From Isurus oxyrinchus (lineage: Eukaryota): a stretch of DNA of 64,000 nucleotides. Each line of letters starts with the position of its first letter. Positions within the stretch are counted from its first letter, which is position 1. Shown here piece by piece: positions 707-64,000 of the stretch. The notes below the pieces were generated by a model that saw nothing but the letters and a program-made list of their open reading frames with translations, was not told the DNA's origin and did no database searches. The position numbers and the translations under genes are program-made. The stretch covers positions 34,348,001-34,412,000 of the forward strand of contig JANJGN010000026.1 in NCBI GenBank assembly GCA_026770705.1, written 5' to 3'.

Positions 707-1213
707 TCACTGGTGCAGTCTCTGGTGTCTCAATAGAAGGGAGGACCAAGTGAATGCCTTTCCACATACAGGGCAGATGAATGGCCTCTCCCCAGTGTGA
801 ACACGCTGGTGTTCCTGCAGGCTGGATAACCGACTAAATCCCTTCCCACACACAGAGCAGGTGAACGGCCTCTCCCCTGTATGAACTCGCTGATGTGTCA
901 GTAGGTTGGATGACTGGGTGAATCCCTTCCCACATTTGGAGCAAGTGAATGACCTCTCCCCAGTGTGAACTCGCTGGTGTATTAGCAGGTTGGATGACTG
1001 AGTGAATCCTTTCCCACACTCAGAGCAGGTGAACGGCCTCTCCCCGGTGTGAATTCGCTGGTGTGACTGCAGAGTGGATGACTTGCTGAATCCCTCTCCA
1101 CACACGAAGCAGGTGAATGGCCTTTCCCCAGTGTGACTGCGTCGATGAGTTTCCAGATCAGACGGGCAACGGAATCCCTTCCCACAGCCCCCACACTTCC
1201 ATCTTTTCTCCAT
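707..1213 (-). CDS. C2H2 zinc-finger protein with 6 tandem fingers and no KRAB/SCAN domain
   Basis: The ORF from the ATG at 1213 (MEKRWKC...) has six CxxC-x12-HxxxH fingers joined by TGERPF(T/I)-type linkers. Upstream sequence (1214-1580) is degenerate finger sequence with stops, following a tttcacAG acceptor at 1581-1582. Confidence 0.85.
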
Positions 1214-2489
1214 GGCGTGGGTGTCCTTCTGTCTTGCCAGGTTCAACGATCAGTTGAAGACTCATCTACAAACAGAACACATTTACAGTTTCTCCCCAGT
1301 GTGAATGCTGTGAAGTTTTTTCAGGCTGTGTTACAGGTTGAAGCTCTTTCCCACAGTCAGTTCACTGGAACACTCTCACTCGGGTGTGTGTGTGTTTCGG
1401 TGCTTACCCAGTCACACTAATGTTTGAAATCTTCTCCCAGAAACAGAACAAATAAACATTTCTTCTTCTAGATTCAAATGCCAATGACATCCACATCCCA
1501 ATGAATCGAGTGACTTTGTCAGATCATGGCGTGGAGTTTGTTTTGAGATTTCAGTCTGCAAATCCTCACCTCCAGATATCCTGTGAAAGGAGTTTACAAA
1601 AATCATCACTGTCAGTACAGGTTAGAAATTCAAAACAAACAATTCTAGTTTCTATGAAACATTCTTCCTTTCTCATTCCCCAAAAGCTGTAAATCCCCAT
1701 CCCACACACTCTCCCTCCATTCTCACTCTGCTGTACCTAATATACACCGCCCCAATTCTTCTGAAGGTGACAATTCATGCTGATCGACAGGTCCATGCTC
1801 ACTGATTCTGATACACATAATTTTTTTGGGACTAAAGAGGCACGTAATATACAGCAATGTATTACTTGATTAGAGATACACGCAGAATGTGAGGAAGAAC
1901 TTTATTTAGGCAGCCTATAGCCTAAGTGGATGATGGAAGCAGAGATGATCAATTATTTCAAAATTGGATGGGCACTTGAAGGAAATAAACTTGCAGGGTG
2001 AGGAGGATATAAAGGAGGAATGGATCTGACTGGATTCCTCTGCAGAGTTGGTATGGACTCTAGTTGCAAAATGGACTCCTTCTGTGTCATATCGACTCTG
2101 TCTGAAAATATATAACATAGCTACAGTACTATATTACAAGACAAGAAATAATAATAAATGTACTTAATTGGAAAACCATAAATAATATGTCTAATATGTA
2201 TCATATAACATCACTCCACTTAAACCTGTCCTATATTAATTTACTGTCCCCTTAAATATCAGCCTTTCCCTGGGAAAATGACCCCTTTAAATGTGAACAT
2301 TAGCCAGACAAATAAATGTGCCAAGATTAGTCAGCAAACGATGTCAATGTCTTCAAGAGAGAGAGTAGGCCAACCTTTCCAGAGTCTGCACCCTCACTGG
2401 ATTCACTTCCTTTCCCTTCAGTTCCTGCAAGTCAACAATTTAAACCCAATATGAGTAAAGTAATGGAAAGGGGGAGGAAATAAAGTTTT

Positions 2490-6807: not shown

Positions 6808-6952
6808 AAAAGCAAAAATAAAAGCAAAATACTGCGGATGCTGGAAATCTGAAACAAAACAAAAATAGCTGGAAAAACTTAGCAGGTCTGACAGCATCTG
6901 TGGGAGGAATACAGTTAATGTTTTGAGTCTGTATGACTCCTCATCAGAACTT
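6808..6952 (-). mobile_element. Short Penelope-pLTR-derived insertion with a decayed hammerhead core
   Basis: Minus strand reads AGTT-CTGATGA-G-GAGTC-ATACA-GACTC-AAAAC-ATT-AACT. Flanked by a near-direct repeat, TATATTGAT (6799-6807) and TATACTGAT (6953-6961). Confidence 0.65.
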
Positions 6953-8671: not shown

Positions 8672-9570
8672 ATAAGACATAGGAGCAGAAGTAGGCCATT
8701 CGGCCCACCGAGTCTGCTCTGCCATTCAATGAGATCATGGCTGATCTGATAATTCTCAATTCCACTTTTCTGCCTTTATCCCATAACCCTTGATTCCCTT
8801 ACTGATTAAAAATCTATCTTTCTCAATTCTGAATATACTTAACGACCCAGCCTCTACAGTAAAGTATTCTACAGATTCACTACCCTCTGAAAGAAGAAGT
8901 TCCTCCTCATCTCTGTCTTAAATGGGTGACCCCTTACTCTGAGATTATGCCCTCTGGTCCTAGACTCTCCCACAAGGAGAAACAACTTCTCCACATTTAC
9001 CCTGTTAAGCCCCCTAAGAATCTTATATGTTCCCAGTAGGTTGCCTCTGATTCTTCTGAACTCCAGTAAGTACAGGCCCAGCCTACTCAACCTCTCCTCA
9101 TAAGAAAATCCCTCTGTACCAGGGATCAACCTAGTGAACCTTCTCTGGACTACCTCCAATGCCAGTATGCCTTTCCTTAGATAAGGGGACCAAGCTCTTC
9201 GCAGTATTCTAGGTGTGGTCTAACTAGTGCCTTGTTTAGTTTTAGCAAGACTTCCCTATTTTTATACTCCATTCCCTTTGAAATAAAGGCCAACATTCCA
9301 TTTACATTCCCTATTACCTGCTGAAATTGTATGCTAGCCTTTTGTGATTCATGCCTGAGGATCCCCAAATCCCTCTGTTTTGCAGTCTTTCTCCATTTAA
9401 ATAATATTCAACTCCTCTATTCTTCCTGCCAAAGTGCAGAACCTCACATTTTCCCACACGATATTCCATCTGCCAAGTTTATGCCCACTCACTTAACCTG
9501 TCTATATCTGTCTGTCGGCTCCTTGTGTCATCCTCACCACTTGCCTTCCCACATATTTTTGTGTCATCCA
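8672..9570 (-). mobile_element. CR1-clade LINE 3' fragment
   Basis: ORF pieces ALVRPHLEYC and VQRRFTRLIPG...LSRLGLYLLEFRRIRG, plus a CR1-type 3' UTR. Confidence 0.85.
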
Positions 9571-11304: not shown

Positions 11305-12828
11305 CCAAATGTTAGTGAGGTAAGGAGGGAGATTTCAGGGGCTCTGCCACGAATTTTCAAATTCTCTCTGGCCATTGGAGAGGTGCCAGAGGACTGGAAA
11401 CAGCGAATGTGGGACCATTATTCAAGAAGGGTAGCAGCAATAAACCAGGTAATTACAGGCCAGTGAGTATAACATTGGTAATCAGTGGTCGGGAAACTAT
11501 TGTAAAAAATTCTGAGGGACACTTAGAGAGGCAGGGACTAATCAGGGATAGTCAGCATGGCTTTGCCTGGGGGAAATCATGTCTAACAAATTGGACTGAA
11601 TTTTTCGAGGAGGTGACTAGTTGTGTAGATGAGGATAGTGCAGTTGACGTAGTCTACATGGACTTCAGTAAGGCTTTTGACAAGGTCCCGAATTGGAGAA
11701 TGGTCAAGAAGGTAAGAGCCCAAGAGATCCAGGGCAATTTGGCAAATTGGATTCAAAACTGGCTCAGTGGCAGGAGACAGAGGAAGGATGGTCAAAGGTT
11801 GTTTTTGCAATTGGAAGCCTTAAATGAGTGGTGCATCACAGGGATTGGTGCTGGGACCCTTGCTGTTTGTAGTGCACATTAATGATTTAGACGTGAATAG
11901 AGGAGGTATAATCAGTAAGTTCACAGGTGACATGAAAATTGGTGGTGTCGTAAATAGTGAGGAGGAAAGCCTTAGATTACAGGACAATATAGATGGGCCG
12001 GTAAGATGGGCATAGCAGTGGCAAATGGAATTTAATCCTGAGAAGCTTGCATTTTGGGAGGACTAACACAGCAAGGGAATACACAATAAATGGTAGGACC
12101 CTAGGAAGTACAGAGGATCAGAGGGACATTGGTGTACATGTCCATAGATCCCTGAAGGCAGCAGCACAGGTAGATAAGGTGAAGAAGGCACATGGGATAC
12201 TTGCCTTTATTAGCTGAGGCATGGAATATAAGAGCAGAGAGGTTATGTTAAAGCTGTATAAAATGCAAGTTAGGCCACAGCTGGAGTACTGTGTGCAGTT
12301 CTGGTTGCCACACTAGAGGAAAGATGTGACTGCACTGGAGAGGGTGCAGAGGAGATTCACCAGGATGTTGCCTGGCTGGAGCATTTCAGCTATGAAGAGA
12401 GACTGGATAGGCTAGGGTTGTTTTCCTTATAGCAGAGAAGGCTGAGGGAGGACCTGACAGAGGTGTACAAAATTATGAGGCACAGAGATAGGGTAGATAG
12501 GAAGAAACTTTCCACCCTAGCGGAGGTGTCAATAACCAGAGGGCATAGATTTAAGGTAAGGGGCAGGAGCTTTAGAGAGGATTTGAGGAAAAAAAAAATT
12601 CACCCAGAGGCTGGTTGGAATCTGGAACACACTGCCTGAGGGGGTGGTAGAGGCAGGAGCCTGAGCAACATTTAAGAAGTATTTAGATGAGCACTTGAAA
12701 TGCCAGAGCATACAGTGGCCCAACACAGGCCAAGTGCTGAAGAATGGGACTGGAATAGATAGGTGTGGCCAGCATGGACATGATGGGCTGAAGGGCCTGT
12801 TTCGGTGCTGTAAAACTCTATGACTCTC
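11305..12828 (+). mobile_element. CR1-clade LINE ORF2 (RT) 3' fragment
   Basis: PGNYRPVS, SQHGF, VYMDFSKAFDKV, SQGLVLGPLLF, FTGDMKI motifs; CTCTATGACTCT tail. Confidence 0.9.
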
Positions 12829-14453: not shown

Positions 14454-15125
14454 TCACTTATGAACTTGCTGGTGTCTCAGCAGTGTGGATGACCGACCAA
14501 ATCTTTTCCCACACATGGAGCAGGTGAATGGCTTCTCCCCAGTGTGAACTTGCTGGTGTCGCAGAAGGGTGCATGTCTGAGTGAATCTCTTCCCACACAC
14601 GGAGCATGAGAATGGCTTCTCCCCAGTGTGAGTGCGCTGGTGTACAGTGAGGTCAGATGATTGCTTGAACCCAATCCCACAGTGAGAGCATCTGAACGGT
14701 CTCTCGTCAGTGTGAACACGTTGATGGGACATCAGTTCCCCAGAACTTTTATAGCACTTCCCACAGTTTGGGCATTGAAAAGGTCTCTCATCAGTGTGAA
14801 CTCGCTGGTGTCTCAGCAGGTTGGATGACTGAGTGAATCCCTTCCCACACTCAGAGCAGATGAATGGTCTCTCCCCAGTGTGAATGCGCTGATGTGCCAG
14901 CAGATGGGATGAGGTAGTGAATCCCTTCCCACACTTGGGGCAGGTAAACGGCCTCTCTCCGGTGTGAATGCGCCGATGAATTTCCAGCCTAACTGGATAA
15001 CTGAATCCCTTCCCACAATCACCACATTTCCACAGTTTCTCCACAGTTTGACTGTGCTTGTGTCCCGACAGGACAGAACAAGTGTATGGTTTCTCTCCAA
15101 CGTGAACGGTGCTTTTTCCTTCCAT
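14454..15125 (-). CDS. C2H2 zinc-finger protein with 7 intact fingers and no KRAB/SCAN domain
   Basis: Open frame from the ATG at 15125 (MEGKSTVH...). One internally deleted finger is followed by seven CxxC-x12-HxxxH fingers with TGERPF/TDERPF/TGEKPF linkers. Acceptor ctatttcAG near 15235. Confidence 0.88.
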
Positions 15126-15989
15126 GCTCAAAATCCGGTAATATTCAGGTTACAATTAATTGGACAACTTTGCCAGATCCTGATGTGATGTTTGGTTTCA
15201 GTTTCCTGACTGCAAATCCTCCTCTTCTGATACCCTGAAATAGAAAAAAGGGAGTGAGAGAGAACCCACAAAAACACACAAAGCCAGGTTGTGAAACTGA
15301 GTTTGTGGGGCCAGCACTAGGAAGAAATGACCATGAAAGTTGATGGATTGTCGTAAAAACACAACTGGTTCACTAATATCCTTCAGGGAAGGGAACCTGC
15401 CTCCCGGTCTGGGCTACACAAGACTCTGGCTTTCATGGGAGGAGAGCAAGAGAAAGAGGTGGGAGAGGCAAAGTGTGGAGACAGAGATTTTATATTTCTA
15501 CAACTTGACCAGAACTTTGACAGGATCTCCCGAACTCTCAGCCTCCACCACCTAGAAGCACCAGAGTAGCAGGTATATACGAACACCATCACCTACAAGT
15601 TCCTCTCCGACTCCACATTGTCCTAACTTGTCTGACATCCAGCACTACATGAAGGCAAATTTCCTCCATTTAACATATGAACATATGAATTAGGAGCAGG
15701 AGTAGGCCACTTGGACCCTGGAGGCTGTTCCGTCATTCAATATGATCATGGCTGATCTGACTGTTACCTCACGCCTACCCCTGATAACCTTTCACCCCCT
15801 TGTTATCAAGAATCTATCTACCTCTCCCTTAAAAATATTCAAAGACTCTGTTTCCACTGCGTTTTGAGGAAGGGAATTGCAAAGGCTCATTAACCTCTGA
15901 GATAAAAAAAAACTCATCATCTCTGTGTTAAATGAGTGACCCCTTATTTTTACATTGTGACCCATATCCTCACTACCACCCTTGATGCT

Positions 15990-21612: not shown

Positions 21613-22725
21613 TCACTTGTGGACTCGCCGGTGTCTCAGCAGGGTGGATGAGTGAGTGAATCCCTTCCCACAAACAGAGCAGCTGAACAGATCCTCCCCA
21701 TGTGAACTCGCTGGTGACTCTGAACATTGGATGAGCGACGAAATCTCTTCCCACACTTGTAGCAGGTGAATGGCCTCTCTCCGGTGTGGCCTCGCTGGTG
21801 TGCCAGCAGGTTGGATGCGTGAGTGAATCCCTTACCACACGGAGCAGATGAACGGCCTCTCCCCAGTGTGACTGCGTTGGTGTATCAGCAGATCCCTTGC
21901 GCTTTTAAAGCCAGAATCACAGTCAGAACATTGAAACGGTCTCTGATCAGTATGAAGAAGTTGGTGTGATGTGAGGTTGGTTAAACAAGTGAATCCCTTC
22001 CCACACACGGGGCAGGTGAACGGTCTCTCCCCAGTGTGAACACGGAGATGTTCAGTGAGATTGGATGACCGTGCAAATCTCTTCCTGCAGTGAGAGCAAC
22101 TGAATGGTCTCTCCCTGGTGTGAACTCGCTTGTGTTCAGTCAGGGTAGATGATTTAGTAAAGCCCTTCCCACACACGGAGCAGATGAATCGTCTCTTCCC
22201 AGTGTGAACTCGTTGGTGTGTTAACAAGGTAGATAACTGAGTGAAACCCTTCTCACAATCAGAGCAGATGAACGGTCTCTCCCCGGTGTGACTGCGTCAA
22301 TGAGTTTCCAGCTTGGATGGATAATTGAATCCCTTCCCACGGTCCCCACATTTCCATGGTTTCTCCGTGGTGCGGGTGTCCTTATGCTTCTCCAGTTTGA
22401 ATGGATCAGTTGAAGCCTCGTCCACACACAGAAAAAGGGGTACACTTTCTCTCTGCTGAGAACGGTGTGATTTTTTTTCAGGCTCTGTAACTGGTTGAAG
22501 CTCTTTCCACAGTCAGTTCACTGGATCACTCTCACTTGGGTGTGTGTGTCTCGGTGCTTTTCCAGTCACACTGATGTTTGAAATCTTTTCCTAGAGACAA
22601 AAATTTCTTGTGCTGCATTCAAAGGCTGATGATATTCAGGTCCTGATGAATTGAGTGACCATCAGATCTTGACGTGATGTTTGATTTGAGTTTCATGTCT
22701 GTAAATTTTCCCCGTCTTATGCCCT
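21613..22725 (-). pseudogene. C2H2 zinc-finger pseudogene (about 9-10 fingers)
   Basis: The family start ATG is ACG here (TEKPWKC). First finger has Cys>Arg, there is an in-frame TGA at 22297-22299, a frameshift near 21835 and more lesions downstream. Confidence 0.85.
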
Positions 22726-23564: not shown

Positions 23565-24490
23565 TCACAGAATCACACAATGCAGAAGCCCTTCGGCCCA
23601 CTGAGTCTGCACGAGTGAGAAACATGTGACCTACCTACCTAATTCCATTTACCAGCACTTGGCCCATAGCCTTGAATGTTATGATGGGCCAAGTGCTCAT
23701 CCAGGTACATTTTAAAGGATGTGAGGCAATCCTCCTTCATCACCCTCTCCCAGGCAGTGCATTCCAGACTGTCACCACCCTCTGGGTAAAAAGGTTTTTC
23801 CTCTCATCCCCCCTAAACCTCCTGCCCCTCACCTTGAACTTGTATCCCCTCATGACTGACCTTTCAACTAAGGGGAACAGCTGCACCCTATCCACCCTGT
23901 CTGTTCCCCTCATAATCTTGTACACCTCGATCAGGTCGCCCCTCAGTCTTCTCTGCTCCAATGAAAACAACCCAAGTTTATCCAACCTTTCTTCATAACT
24001 TAAATGTTTCATCCCAGGCAACATCCTGGTGAATCTCCTCTGCATCCCCTCCAGTGCAATCACATCCTTCCTATAATGTGGCGACCAGAACTGCACACAG
24101 TACTCCAGCTGTGGCCTCACCAAGGTTCTATACAACTCCAACATCACCTCCCTACATTTGTAATCTATGTCTCGATTGATAAAGGCAAGTTTCCCATATG
24201 CCTTTTCACCACCCCACTAGCATGCCCCTCTGCCTTCAGAGATCTATGGACACACATGCCAAGGTCCCTTTGTTCCTCAGAACTTCCTAGTGTCATGCTG
24301 TTCACCGAATACTTTCTTATCAAATTACTCCTTCCAAAGTGTATCACCTCACACTTTTCAGGGTTAAATTCCATTTGCCACTTATCTGCCCATTTGACCA
24401 TCCCATCTATATCTTCCTGTAGCCCAAGACACTCAACCTCACTGTTAACCACACGATCGATCTTGTGTTATCCACAAACCTACGAATCCT
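23565..24490 (-). mobile_element. CR1 LINE 3' fragment (young subfamily)
   Basis: KWQMEFNPEKCEVIHFG and LYRTLVRPQLEYCVQFWSPHY; closely matches 32160-33060. Confidence 0.9.
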
Positions 24491-24619
24491 ACTCCCGAAA
24501 CAATCTTTATGGCTTGGGTGAAATTTAATATTCTGGCTGTCGGTTTGCTTTACTTTGTATCCTTTCGTCACCAAATAAACTATATTTCTTCAGGTTATGT
24601 TTGAGGTTTTGTGTGATGA

Positions 24620-24945
24620 AACAAACAGTGATTTACTTGTACTTCCTGCAGCTCAGTTACTGTATTAACTGCTGACGATCTGGTCTGCTCTACACTGGGA
24701 AGGTGAAAAGCAGATTAGGTGGTCACTTTGTGGAACAAACTCTGTTCAGTCTGTCAGCTTGACCCTGAACTTCCCGTCACTTGTCATTTTAATTCTCCAC
24801 CCCACTCCCACTCTGACCCTCTCTGTCCTCGGCCTCTTGAACTGTTCCAGTGAAGCTCAATGAGAGCTCAAGGAACAGCAGCTCATTCTTCAATTCTGCA
24901 CTTTACAACCTTCAGAACTCAACAATGAGTTCAGCACTTTCTGCA
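24620..24945 (+). mobile_element. Penelope-like GIY-YIG endonuclease fragment
   Basis: Homologous to 35775-36100 (GLLYTG; PELPVTCHFNSP). Confidence 0.7.
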
Positions 24946-42269: not shown

Positions 42270-42661
42270 TCATTGACATGAATTAACGGTGTCCATCAGT
42301 GCAAGGGAAATGTTCACAAAACTCGGTTTACCGCTGGATTTATCAACAGTTCTGTTGATGATCTTCAAGGGGATCGCTTCATGTCCCACCACACAGGAGT
42401 AAGAAGCGCCGCTGGCCCACTCCTCTGCTGCAATGGATAACAGGCTGTACATGAAGAAGGAGCGATTGTCATTCTCCGCCACCACCTCAGTGTTCTTGTA
42501 ATTCCTGGGATCCACTGGCTTGTCATTGACGGTCCACTTGACGAAAATCTCTCGCGGGGAGAAACCTCTCACTAAGCAGCTGAGGGAGACGAATCTCTGA
42601 GCGGAGACATCTTCTGCCGAGGGCAGGAGGACAGACACGGATGGTTCCTGCGGGTCTTTAT
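42270..42661 (-). CDS. IGHM: IgM Cmu4 exon plus secretory tailpiece
   Basis: ttttctgcAG acceptor. Encodes (D)[17 protein letters not shown]...[17 protein letters not shown]...[43 protein letters not shown], with tail sequon NIS and penultimate Cys. Internal G|GTAAA donor at 42331 for splicing to TM1. Confidence 0.97.
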
Positions 42662-42799
42662 CTGCAGAAAATGTACAATAAATGTCAATAAACTGGATAC
42701 TTTCGTAGACAATGAAACTGCTGGTTAGATGTGAGAGAAACATGTTTTGTGATGAATTTTAAGGTTTTTCATTATCCAATTCTCGGAAATATATCTCCG

Positions 42800-43687: not shown

Positions 43688-44310
43688 CTGTGAGACAGAA
43701 ATGAAAATCAATCAAAGTTTCACCTTCAGAATCAGTACAGCAGTATTCAGCCTTCACTCCCTAAAGGAGAATAAATCACCTTGGACATATCAACCTCTAA
43801 CTATCGTCTTTAATCTTCTTTACACAATGGAAAAACCAGCTTGGTCTGTGGAAATCATTCCCATAATTTAAGTCCTTCAGCCCCGGTAACATTCTCATGA
43901 ATCTGCGTTGCCCCAGTCCCAATACAAATGTATCATTCCTGGGCCCTGGAATGCAGTACTGAAAGCTGTTTTATAAGTAGGGTGGATGCACTTTCCAACA
44001 CTCCATCCTGAAGCTGTTACCAGTGAAGTGTTCCAGACACCTTCTGCCTATCCAAATATGATCAGCTGACTCAGGGTAAAGCTGATATCAAGTCCACCTC
44101 ACTCACTCTATGACGTCAATGTAGAGACGTGATGTGATAAAATCCTGAATGGTGAACAATCCGAATGTAGCAGTTACATCAGAATTAAATACCAACTACA
44201 TGAGAATAAATTAGAAATTCTTCTGTGCTTGTACTAACTCCAATAAATTCCTGATTCGACTAACATCGGAGAGCAGAATGATCTATCCTTCCTCGGTTTG
44301 TATTTCTTAC

Positions 44311-44625
44311 CATCGCACTTGGTGGCGTTTCGACTTTGGGTGACCCCTTGGTGAGTGACCTGACAGGTATAGACCGCGTCACTGAACCATTCTCCAGCGG
44401 AGACTGTCAGCCGACTGGTCGCCGAGAAGTTCCCATTCACTTCAAAGATAGGAGAGGTGACAATTCCTGAATCCATGGGTTGTCCATTCTTCAGCCACTT
44501 CACGGTGATTGACATTGAACGGAGATCGGTGATTGAACAGACGGCGGTTGCAAATTTGTTCGTTCTGATTTCTTCCCGGGAACTCACGGTGAGGAGAACA
44601 GTTGGAGGTAAGTCAGGATGAGGAC
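44311..44625 (-). CDS. IGHM: IgM Cmu2 exon
   Basis: ttttgaAG acceptor and GTAAG donor, 315 nt. Encodes (C)[15 protein letters not shown]...AVCSITD...VKWLKNG...[39 protein letters not shown]. Confidence 0.95.
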
Positions 44626-44824
44626 CTTCAAAAAACACAGGTTAGCCATTTCTTGCAGAAGAAATTGATAACAGATACAATAAATTCTTATATTTTAACC
44701 ATGGACACTAACCTGGAATTTCCAGGGATCAGAACTATGCAGAGTACTATAAATGCGTTATAACCAAGGCCCCATACAGTTCAATCACAGCCTTTCTGTT
44801 TCTCACAGGTTCCCCAACACTTAC

Positions 44825-45124
44825 ATTGCATTTCAACGCTCTTGTCTGAGTTGCTGTATTGAACTTCACACTTGATTATGCTGCATTCCCCCTCTGACTC
44901 GGTGATGGTTAACTGGCTGCTCAGAGTGTAGGTTCCCTTCTGGTTTCTCACTGACGGGTAAGTCTTAAATCCAGTGGTGATCTGCTGCCCATCTTTCTTC
45001 CAGGTCAGGCTGGTGATTTCTGGGGAGTAGTCCATCGCCAAACAGCCGTAGGTGACGGAGCTGTCGGTGTTGTGTTGCTGACAGGAGGAGACCAGGCTGT
45101 AGAGAGTGGGCGAAGACGGTGTCG
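44825..45124 (-). CDS. IGHM: IgM Cmu1 exon
   Basis: ttcccAG acceptor and GTAAGT donor, 300 nt. Encodes (A)[45 protein letters not shown]...[35 protein letters not shown]. Confidence 0.96.
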
Positions 45125-45679
45125 CTGGGAAAGAATAGCCGATCGAACAAGTTAGACTCTGTGATTTGCGCTCATTAAGTAACCAAACAACTCAAAATTT
45201 GACTATAACTATAAACATATCCTAATATATTCCAATTGAAACCCACATCCACATTTGATCATTTATTATTTCCATCATTTGGTGATCCTCACCTGTCGGT
45301 TCCCTCTTTAGAAACCCACACCTCTTTCTCCGCCTCTATCCCATTACTGAAATAGAACATTTTGATGTCATCTGAATGACGTACCTTTCATTGGATTAAA
45401 ATGGAAGAGCAGAGGATTTTACCGGTTATTTCGGCCATCGTTTATTTCTCAATTAACAGCACTTGGTGATAGACAAATTGTCTCGTCATTTATATCATTG
45501 CAGTTTGGAAATTGGCTCTGTTCAAATTGACTGATGCCCCCTCCTCTCTCCATGTCCATCCAAAACAAAGAATATCAACGGCCCTTCGAAAGAACCTTTG
45601 TAATGGTACCTATATAATGACCATAGAATCCTAAATTGATTACCAGTTACAGTAAGTACGACATTTTCCAATCGTATGG

Positions 45680-57842: not shown

Positions 57843-58231
57843 CACGGTGAAATACAACCGCACAAAAACTTCACCCACTCTCTATTCAGTGCCGCCTCTC
57901 AATATTCACTTCAAATAGATGTTTACCTCTGATCTAGTTTAGTATTTATGCAGCAATTTACAAAATTCAATGAACAGTGATCCCCTCCAAGTATTAAAAT
58001 GAACATTATATCCAGGTCTGTAATTGTGGAAACTGTTAACAGTAAATATAAACACAGCCAAAAGCTCAGCTCATTATATCAATTGGTTTGTTAGGTTTTT
58101 CTGCTAACTTTGCTGTCTTAGTTTTGTCAGAAGCGGCTTGTTGTCGGCTTCTGATCATTACAGTTAATATCACATTTAAAACAAGTACTTACCGTCAGGT
58201 TACGATGGAAGTTATTGAGTTTCTCTCAATC

Positions 58232-58270
58232 TGTTCTTGTTCGGGTCCAGCCCTGGTTCCTCTCGCTGTG
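58232..58270 (-). promoter_or_regulatory. VH 23-RSS
   Basis: CACAGCG (58270-58264), 23-bp spacer, ACAAGAACA (58240-58232). Confidence 0.92.
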
Positions 58271-58575
58271 GTCTGCTGCACAGTAATAGATGGCGGTGTC
58301 TTCAGCCTTCAGGTTCGTCATGTCCAAGGAGAAGATGTTTCTTGAAGTGTCTTTGGACGCAGTAAATCGATCTTCAATTGCTGGGGCATAGTTGTTGATG
58401 GATGAACTATAGTAGCTAACCAACCACTCCAGCCCCTGTCCGGGAACCTGTCGGACCCAACACATGAAGTTGCTGCCAAGATCGAAGCCGCTGGTTTTAC
58501 AGGTCAGTCTCAGGGAGCCTCCGAGACGCCCAGTCTCTGCCTCAGGCTGAGTCAACACAACATCCGACTGGACAC
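58271..58575 (-). CDS. IGHV: VH exon (open frame)
   Basis: ttttacAG acceptor. Encodes (R)[101 protein letters not shown]. Confidence 0.97.
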
Positions 58576-58711
58576 CTGTAAAAATATATCAAAAACCCCG
58601 AGGATTAATCCTGTTGAAAGGATTCCAGGCTCTGTAACATTCCAGAGAGAGAGAGAGAGATTAACACTGAGACAGTAACAGTGAGAGATTTGGGGAATAA
58701 AAACTACTCAC

Positions 58712-63140: not shown

Positions 63141-63837
63141 TGTGTTGGCATGAATCGCCACGATGACCAGCGGCAACAGCGGCTTGGCAGTTGAAGCCAA
63201 TACTGGAATAAAAAGCAACCCACAACGATATTTTGTACCTTCATATGCAGCACTTTCAGCAGAACCTGCCTCACAACAATTGGCCTCCTCAGACATCAGC
63301 ACTTCTGAAATGGATTTGTTTCCATTGTGTGTCTGTGTCCTTTCATAGATAGAAGGTTGTCCAGGATCTTCGTGAAATTCAGTTGCAAACACTATTATGT
63401 GCTTCTCCCTCTCTCTCTCCCTCTCCCTCACACACAGACCAAGATGGCAACTTGTGCTTCAACTTAAGATCTCACTTTGACTTCCTGGGAGGCTCCATAG
63501 CACTTAACTACCGAAGAAAATGACCCTAAATGTCCTTCAGGTGGTATGATGAACCAATAAGATCTCCCCAAAACTATGTTTGTTGAGGTGGACATTAAAG
63601 TTCCTGCCGTCTCTATACAGCTCCCTGGTCAACATCCCTCCCTTTAATCAAGATGAACAAAGATACATCACCAGGAATTAGGCCGCTTTACTCTGGTGCT
63701 GACTTTAACGTGCGCTAATCAACCACGTTCATCTGCAATTAATTGAATTTTGTTAAATTTTGACATCTTCTGCTGAATGCGATGTGGTATTACATCTGGG
63801 GAAGTGGATTCTTGAAACAATAATGTCAAAGATCTAA

Positions 63838-63971
63838 AAACAGAGAGATAAAAACAAAAAAACTCCGGATTGAGTTCTGCTGAAGGGTCATGAGGTCTCG
63901 AAACGTCAACTCTTTTCTTCTCCGCCGATGCTGCCAGACCTGCTGAGTTTTTCCAGGTAATTCTGTTTATA
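63838..63971 (+). mobile_element. 134-bp Penelope-pLTR-derived insertion with a hammerhead motif and 12-bp TSD
   Basis: Flanked by TCAAAGATCTAA at 63826-63837 and 63972-63983. Contains GAGTT-CTGCTGA-A-GGGTC-ATGAG-GTCTC-GAAAC-GTC-AACTC (63872-63912). Confidence 0.75.
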
Positions 63972-64000
63972 TCAAAGATCTAACCTGACAGCGACATTTT

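What the first reader, a model, noticed from the sequence alone, without database searches (positions are those of the whole stretch)
63826..63983. Tiny (~135-145 bp) TSD-flanked mobile elements built around a minimal hammerhead ribozyme
Seen: 63872-63912 folds as a type-I hammerhead with stem I GAGTT/AACTC, box CTGCTGA (a variant of CUGANGA), a stem II with one mismatch, GAAAC, palindromic ACGT in place of stem III, and a GUC cleavage triplet. It sits in a 134-bp insert with a perfect 12-bp direct repeat. A sister copy lies at 6808-6952 (-), with CTGATGA, a perfect GAGTC/GACTC stem, GAAA lost by CpG decay and a 9-bp near-TSD. Remnants occur at 26710-26880 and at the end of the GIY-YIG element (36434-36463). 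Known: Penelope-like elements carry minimal hammerheads in their pLTRs that can cleave as dimers. Inference: a non-autonomous, retrozyme-like family mobilised by shark Penelope elements, with subfamily variation in the catalytic core.
Basis: partly seen in the sequence, partly recalled or inferred. Interest (0 to 1): 0.7.

Follow-up and report, generated by a model that had tools for sequence, protein, structure and literature searches.

The report
Penelope retrotransposon end-stub with altered hammerhead
This 134-base insert is a real, recent insertion, but it is the cut-short, partly inverted end-piece of a very abundant Penelope-type jumping gene rather than a separate mini-element; its self-cutting RNA motif carries a core change that probably weakens it, and the end points of its many sister copies suggest how these elements copy themselves.

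Summary
The insert and its 12-bp target-site duplication (TSD) are real: 19 of 19 paralogous sites are empty. It is not a separate 135-145-bp family. Bases 63873-63968 are the end of a 3.3-kb Penelope-like element with an RT + GIY-YIG ORF (about 108,000 exact 35-mers). Bases 63838-63870 are an inverted piece of that element's own tail. Of 98 copies chosen by their 3' part, 49 reach beyond -30 and 30 reach the ORF. However, 27 start within 15 nt of the hammerhead's first base, and none starts at the cleavage site. In 34 of 37 head-to-head pairs one arm has the tail and one lacks it. Best reading: both nicked target strands prime reverse transcription at two internal sites of one uncleaved RNA, likely running off at its 5' end. 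The ribozyme is a passenger with A6 changed to C or U. The layout, the tail and the minimal hammerheads are published. I found no paper on this shark-like family. This scan noted the same thing on other DNA of this and other genomes.

The parts
63826..63837 (+). Left target-site duplication TCAAAGATCTAA
   Evidence: single copy at 19 of 19 empty paralogous sites
63838..63870 (-). Inverted arm: the element's tail, positions +115..+147 (+1 = window 63873)
   Evidence: 31 of 33 identical to L109:4198-4230, the pLTR-to-ORF junction of a full-length copy
63871..63872 (+). Junction bases TG between the arms; the G gives the apparent fifth pair of stem I
   Evidence: G in 1,929 of 73,410; long copies have A, C or T here
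63873..63968 (+). Forward arm: pLTR end +1..+96, ending at the 'short' 3' end class
   Evidence: 96 of 96 identical to L007; 92 of 96 to the L109 3' pLTR
63873..63911 (+). Minimal type-I hammerhead-like motif: stem I AGTT/AACT, core CTGCTGA (A6C), extra A, 5-bp stem II with one mismatch, GAAAC, GTC; predicted cut after 63907
   Evidence: sequence, descriptor; not the minimum-energy fold; no Rfam hit
63972..63983 (+). Right target-site duplication
6808..6951 (-). Non-inverted stub (+1 to tail) of an older subfamily with canonical CTGATGA; shared by paralogous clusters
38298..38413 (+).
26721..26899 (.). Decayed head-to-head pair with a 10-bp direct repeat GAAACACTTA
   Evidence: forward and reverse alignments; repeat at 26721 and 26890
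35700..36463 (+). 3' part of an older Penelope-like copy: broken GIY-YIG region, 3' UTR and the first 30 nt of its hammerhead
   Evidence: 64% identical over 109 aa to the L109 ORF; paralogs L194, L204 continue through the motif

Best explanation
The insert is a 5'-truncated, 5'-inverted copy of the pLTR end of a high-copy, endonuclease-bearing Penelope-like retrotransposon, likely made when both nicked target strands primed reverse transcription at two internal sites of one uncleaved element RNA. Shown: identity with the end of a full-length pLTR-ORF-pLTR element; a true TSD; two 3' end classes (about +100 and about +137); one of each class per head-to-head pair; coupled arm lengths; a pile-up of 5' ends at the hammerhead's first base; no pile-up at the cut site. 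Inferred steps: (1) The GIY-YIG domain makes staggered nicks about 12-16 bp apart. (2) One strand primes in the tail and the other near +100. (3) In the window copy the tail-primed cDNA stopped after 33 nt, just short of the other start site, while the other ran to +1. (4) Position +1 is likely the RNA 5' end, about 30 nt behind a TATA-like box, so priming in the leader copy of the pLTR gives 100-140-nt stubs. (5) The two cDNA ends were joined head to head. The ribozyme is carried passively and its A6 change probably lowers cleavage. Odds: stub of a PLE about 0.93; two-strand priming about 0.7; +1 as the RNA start about 0.55.
For: Full-length copy with a 926-codon open frame, RVT_1 (E 3e-6) and GIY-YIG (E 0.002) between two pLTRs. 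107,927 exact 35-mers and 73,410 exact hammerhead 32-mers. Empty sites 19 of 19. 98 copies chosen by +60..+94 only: 49 reach beyond -30, 30 into the ORF; stop rate 2.1% per nt at -5..+10 against 0.27, 0.62 and 0.29% in neighbouring bins; 10 of 31 non-inverted and 17 of 67 inverted copies stop there; 0 at +33..+39. Genome-wide G-N junction patterns: 97 at -17 (one subfamily only), 2,482 at +1, 583 at +5, 194 at the cleavage site. 37 head-to-head pairs: 34 short + tail; log arm lengths r = 0.77 (0 of 10,000 permutations); direct repeats of 13-16 bp in 27; the arms are closer to each other than the median to other insertions in 9 of 9 long pairs. TATA-like box at about -29 to -32 in the subfamilies printed. 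In vitro, the anole PLE cuts and extends both strands, starts at two internal sites that bound the tail, and uses uncleaved RNA (PMC11167929).
Against: No RNA 5'-end data: the available runs are contigs only. The sequence before +3 also reads as a polypyrimidine tract plus AG (3' splice-site-like), and in D. virilis an intron ends at helix I (PMC4209133) while the promoter is internal and TATA-less (PMC2377424). Arms also end near each other at -17 (14 of 21 partners within about 7 nt), so near-symmetry is not special to +1, and that test is biased by the G in the pattern. Arm similarity could come from later gene conversion. Both Pfam hits are below gathering cut-off. The 98-copy sample comes from the first 3.3 Mb of one contig, and paired arms are not independent. 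Alignment ends are uncertain by a few bases.
Confidence: 0.8

Rival explanations
1. An independent non-autonomous, retrozyme-like mini-element of about 135-145 bp, released by hammerhead cleavage and mobilised in trans.
For: 27 of 98 copies start at about +1 and end at one of two fixed 3' positions, so a short class exists. TSDs flank short copies. A few loci join the ORF start to the pLTR end in a short head-to-tail unit (L024, L072, L118). Retrozymes are reported to derive from pLTRs, including in one chondrichthyan (bioRxiv 10.64898/2026.07.22.740005).
Against: No private sequence: the core equals that of a long copy (L007). Inverted arms and junctions differ at each locus. No ends at the cut site. 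The window copy is a monomer and lacks the upstream TATA-like box. The core has lost A6.
Confidence: 0.07
2. The inversion arises by fold-back self-priming of one strand, for example on an antisense template, as proposed in PMC3846280.
For: The arms share variants and are often near-palindromic at the joint.
Against: A fold-back can only recopy what the first strand holds, so the tail arm should always reach at least as far 5'. The short arm reaches more than 10 nt further in 16 of 34 mixed pairs, the tail arm in 7, and 11 are within 10 nt. In the window copy the arms do not overlap at all.
Confidence: 0.1
3. The pile-up at +1 is a reverse-transcriptase stop or end-joining hotspot on long templates (structure, splice-site protein, or microhomology), not the RNA 5' end.
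For: Splice-acceptor-like context at +1/+2 in all subfamilies printed. Short palindromes near +1 favour inverted joints.
Against: The pile-up is also present in non-inverted copies (10 of 31). No spliced junction to +3 was seen among 210 genomic copies checked against one subfamily's reference. The TATA-like spacing is conserved while the sequence between changes.
Confidence: 0.3
4. Two RNA molecules, paired through the hammerhead's ACGT palindrome, each template one arm; the motif is kept as a dimerisation signal.
For: The arms overlap in most pairs, so +1..+100 is copied twice. The palindrome is kept while A6 is lost. Minimal hammerheads are proposed to act as dimers (PMC4209133).
Against: Two independent RNAs should give short/short and tail/tail pairs often; only 3 of 37 were. 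Apparent conservation in young copies reflects recent amplification.
Confidence: 0.12

Closest known systems
Insertion units of canonical EN+ Penelope-like elements (D. virilis Penelope, A. vaga Pen2a; PMC3846280 and PMC8557442, passages read)
   Same: pLTR-ORF-pLTR partial tandem, RT with C-terminal GIY-YIG, heavy 5' truncation, adjacent inverted 5'-truncated copy, 30-40-bp tail on one side, TSD, putative TATA and initiator in the pLTR.
   Different: TSDs here are mostly 13-16 bp (8-10 bp in the A. vaga examples). Copy number is about 10^5. A quantified pile-up of 5' ends at the hammerhead start and coupled arm lengths were not in the passages read.
[quoted passage not shown]
   Same: Short helix I, extra nucleotide between 9 and 10.1, G10.1-C11.1, no helix III with palindromic centre, mostly single motifs from truncated PLEs, opposite-strand pairs 100-700 bp apart.
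   Different: A6 is replaced by U or C in the young subfamilies. Helix II is 5 bp. Sharks are not mentioned in the main text read (supplements not seen).
Poseidon from Anolis carolinensis, PAc (PMC11167929; main text read)
   Same: Two internal RT start sites bounding the tail, downstream of the hammerhead; both strands cut and extended; uncleaved RNA used; no reads ending at the cut site.
   Different: In PAc the ORF starts inside the hammerhead; here the open frame starts after the tail (about +150). Clade placement was not tested here.
Non-LTR retrozymes (bioRxiv 10.64898/2026.07.22.740005, part 1 of 5 and passages; PMC7229834, search listing only)
   Same: Non-coding, type-I hammerhead, pLTR-related.
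   Different: Defined there by tandem units each with a complete hammerhead; the window copy is a monomer with an inverted tail and has no sequence of its own.

Membership tests
EN+ Penelope-like element | Single ORF with RT and C-terminal GIY-YIG endonuclease | tested here: met
   L109:4233-7013, 926 codons; RVT_1 E 3.4e-6, GIY-YIG E 0.0023, both under gathering cut-off; DKG motif visible; 1,777 homologues at E<=1e-30
EN+ Penelope-like element | pLTRs formed by partial tandem | tested here: met
   5'-truncated upstream copy followed by a full unit
EN+ Penelope-like element | Inverted 5'-truncated copy at the 5' end | tested here: met
   window 63838-63870; 37 pairs
EN+ Penelope-like element | 30-40-bp tail on one end only | tested here: met
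   34 of 37 pairs short + tail
EN+ Penelope-like element | Target-site duplication | tested here: met
   19 of 19 empty sites; 13-16 bp in 27 of 37 pairs, none found in 6
Neptune, Poseidon or Nematis clade | Phylogenetic placement of RT; linker Zn-finger-like motif | not tested
   No tree with named references was built
Minimal type-I hammerhead | Helix I 4-5 bp, extra nt 9.1, G10.1-C11.1, palindromic centre, NUH triplet | tested here: met
   (modal pairs intact in 241-261 of 264 young instances)
Minimal type-I hammerhead | Conserved core CUGANGA | tested here: not met
   Window CTGCTGA; first 100 listed read TC 84, TT 15, CT 1 at positions 6-7 (hand count; the pattern allowed only C/T there); older subfamilies keep A6
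Minimal type-I hammerhead | Compensatory covariation in stems | tested here: not met
   no common two-sided change; only a one-sided A-U/G-U difference at stem II pair 2 between subfamilies; the sample is young and little diverged, so power is low
Minimal type-I hammerhead | Self-cleavage as monomer or dimer | not testable with these tools
   Needs an in vitro assay; A6C lowers Mg2+ activity in other hammerheads (PMC7151607, PMC3088659, passages)
Non-LTR retrozyme | Tandem units each with a complete hammerhead | tested here: not met
   Window copy is a monomer; a few short head-to-tail joins occur elsewhere (L024, L072, L118), not followed up
Non-LTR retrozyme | Unit bounded by the cleavage site | tested here: not met
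   0 of 98 ends at +33..+39; 194 junction matches at +36 against 2,482 at +1
Non-LTR retrozyme | Circular RNA | not testable with these tools
   Only contigs of runs guessed to be RNA were offered
Self-propagating non-autonomous family (SINE-like) | Own fixed unit and diagnostic sequence | tested here: not met
   Core identical to long copy L007; junctions differ per locus

The most novel reading that the evidence does not exclude
These stubs are the Penelope counterpart of retroviral strong-stop DNA. An RT dimer on one capped, uncleaved RNA primes from both target nicks at two fixed internal sites, copies the same leader twice and runs off at a TATA-driven start site that coincides with the hammerhead's first base. 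The most successful recent subfamilies did this about 10^5 times after losing core A6, so cleavage is dispensable in vivo.
Probability: 0.4. Interest if true: 0.6.

Novelty: new member of a known kind. Interest (0 to 1): 0.33.

Why it matters
The origin of Penelope's inverted pLTRs and one-sided tail is called undefined in PMC8557442. A young family with about 10^5 near-identical copies gives exact end statistics that can separate the models: two-strand priming, fold-back, or cleaved or circular templates. It also suggests an in vivo case of amplification with a weakened ribozyme. The single insert itself is an ordinary by-product.

Tried and rejected
Cap-G idea. The G before AGTT looked like a copied cap, but those hits were selected by a query that holds the G. 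After G at -2, the base at -1 was G in only 8 of the first 100. G outnumbered A 70 to 30 at -2, but many such G bases come from the inverted arm or the TSD. Not supported. Partner-arm test: 2 of 40 against 17 of 21, Fisher p 2e-9. Rejected as proof of a hard boundary because it is confounded by general arm symmetry and by the G in the pattern. In one search the pair classes for long arms were unreliable, so redid them. Spliced form: no forward join to +3 among 210 copies (one unrelated join), and no listed joint at +3 in RNA contigs. Neither result is evidence of absence. RNA contigs cover both pLTR and ORF, but RNA status is a guess and starts cannot be read. Rfam and single-strand folding did not support the fold; one fold input (L220:1-60) was irrelevant. 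Lunse et al. 2017 (PMC5785218) is not held; only its title was seen, so whether it covers A6 variants or sharks is open. No supplements were read; those of PMC4209133 and the 2026 preprint may list shark motifs. The sample holds 98 of the 100 listed places because the script's anchor was shifted by one base.

Full report
Observation. Positions are given relative to +1 = window 63873, the A of AGTT. The 12-bp repeat and the 134-bp insert are as described. The window lies in a multi-copy region, so the left flank was searched in the genome. All 19 paralogous sites fetched (19 of 39 listed besides the window) carry the 12-mer once, some with substitutions, and run straight into the right flank. 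The duplication is therefore a true TSD and the insertion is younger than the cluster duplications. The hammerhead-like motif is present, with corrections. Stem I is natively AGTT/AACT: of 73,410 exact 32-mers only 1,929 are preceded by G, and 28 of 30 of those inspected are junctions rather than element sequence. An extra A lies between A9 and stem II. Rfam found no hammerhead and the energy fold does not favour it.

What it is. A 35-mer from the 3' part has 107,927 exact matches in the 4.98-Gb genome. Locus L109 holds a full unit: a 5'-truncated pLTR, a 926-codon open frame with RT and C-terminal GIY-YIG hits (both under Pfam's cut-off), and a second pLTR 3.3 kb downstream. The best named homologue is an uncharacterised Chiloscyllium protein (68% identity over 64% of the query). 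The window's 63873-63968 is the end of this pLTR. It is 96 of 96 identical to L007, which continues at least 1,539 nt upstream into the ORF. Window 63838-63870 is the reverse complement of +115..+147, the tail that follows (31 of 33). The insert is thus TSD, inverted tail, TG, pLTR end, TSD.

Is there a defined unit? I took the first 100 listed matches of the 3' 35-mer on contig C1, of which 98 were kept, so selection ignored the 5' end. The 5' ends run from +54 to -3189; 49 pass -30 and 30 enter the ORF. Yet 27 stop within -5..+10, a rate of 2.1% per nt against 0.27-0.62% in the neighbouring bins. This holds for non-inverted copies (10 of 31) and inverted ones (17 of 67). None stops at +33..+39, around the predicted cut. 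Genome-wide patterns with a foreign G two bases upstream give 97 matches at -17 (one subfamily only), 2,482 at +1, 583 at +5 and 194 at +36. These counts include point mutants and palindromic joints, so they are a rough index. The 3' ends fall into two classes, about +100 (45) and about +137 (51), with 2 longer.

Head-to-head pairs. Among 37 pairs in loci L031-L110, 34 have one short and one tail arm, 2 have two tails and 1 has two short arms. Log arm lengths correlate (r = 0.77; 0 of 10,000 permutations). Direct repeats of 13-16 bp flank 27 pairs, and none was found for 6. In 9 of 9 long pairs the arms are closer to each other than the median to other insertions, and at or below the minimum in 8. 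The short arm reaches more than 10 nt further 5' in 16 of 34 mixed pairs and the tail arm in 7, which a single fold-back cannot give.

Mechanism. The anole element PAc cuts and extends both strands, starts reverse transcription at two internal sites that bound the tail, and inserts equally well with a dead ribozyme, using uncleaved RNA (PMC11167929). Applied here by inference: staggered nicks each prime at one of the two sites on one RNA, and the two cDNA ends are joined. When priming occurs in the leader copy of the pLTR, synthesis runs off at the RNA's 5' end and leaves 100-140-nt arms. A TATA-like box lies about 29-32 nt before +1 in the subfamilies printed, while the sequence between varies. 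Against this: no RNA ends could be read, the same context resembles a 3' splice site, and D. virilis Penelope has a TATA-less internal promoter (PMC2377424) and an intron ending at helix I (PMC4209133). A copied-cap signature was sought and not supported.

The ribozyme. In all fetched loci, 264 motif instances have U, C or G at position 6 and 32 have A. This sample is biased by the queries. The A6 group is older: the best genomic matches to the window's sister copy outside its paralogs are 90-95% identical, against 90-100% and mostly 95% or more for the finding. A6C lowers activity in Mg2+ in other hammerheads (PMC7151607 and PMC3088659, passages). The window copy also has a stem II mismatch. 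No common two-sided compensatory change was seen. Weak or absent cleavage is an inference; no assay was possible.

Comparison with what is known. pLTR tandems, inverted truncated copies, the one-sided tail, TSDs and a putative TATA/initiator are described (PMC8557442 and PMC3846280, passages). Minimal hammerheads as single motifs and opposite-strand pairs from truncated PLEs are described (PMC4209133). A 2026 preprint derives tandem retrozymes from pLTRs and includes one chondrichthyan. Searches returned no paper on this shark-like family, on twin priming in Penelope elements, or on 5' ends piling up at the hammerhead start. The library is incomplete, Lunse 2017 was not held, and supplements were not seen. 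L1 twin priming and retroviral strong-stop DNA are recalled comparisons, not from a call. After my analysis I looked up earlier scan notes: several report the same twin-primed stubs, fixed start and altered core on other DNA. They agree but are not independent support; one led me to PMC3846280.

Verdict. A real, young insertion; a new member of a known kind; not a new retrozyme family. Interest 0.33, carried by the testable end statistics rather than by the insert itself.

Noticed in passing
window 58226-58588 (-), 44781-45191 (-), 44234-44641 (-), 42270-42758 (-): Open frames that read like an immunoglobulin heavy-chain V exon and constant exons (recognised from recalled motifs, no family search). 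The flanks recur at dozens of places on C26 and small contigs, as expected for a cartilaginous-fish Ig cluster. The insert lies about 5.2 kb upstream of the V exon and is private to this cluster among 20 examined.
   Followed up: partly
L024, L072, L118 (= L148): The start of the element's ORF region (about +270 to +290) is joined directly to the pLTR end, with a different joint each time, giving short head-to-tail units of about 300 bp that could meet a retrozyme-dimer definition.
   Followed up: no
L138, L144, L157, L158, L174, L175, L183: Recurrent joints in which a few bases of +3..+13 are repeated between the two arms, suggesting slippage or re-priming at the RNA 5' end.
   Followed up: no
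G000:C1:462206-468930 (listing): Three same-strand motif copies about 3.35 kb apart, probably a tandem of full-length units and a candidate source locus.
   Followed up: no
window 707-1249, 14454-15149, 21832-22296 (-): C2H2 zinc-finger arrays.
   Followed up: no
window 32242-33795, 23740-24216, 8869-9219 (-), 11319-11882 (+): Fragments of LINE-type reverse transcriptase frames, CR1/L2-like by recalled motifs.
   Followed up: no
window 24617-24936: A second, more decayed GIY-YIG-region match to the element at 35700-36463 (68% identity over 322 bp).
   Followed up: no
window 37080-37340: Tandem repeat of about 50 bp, roughly five copies.
   Followed up: no
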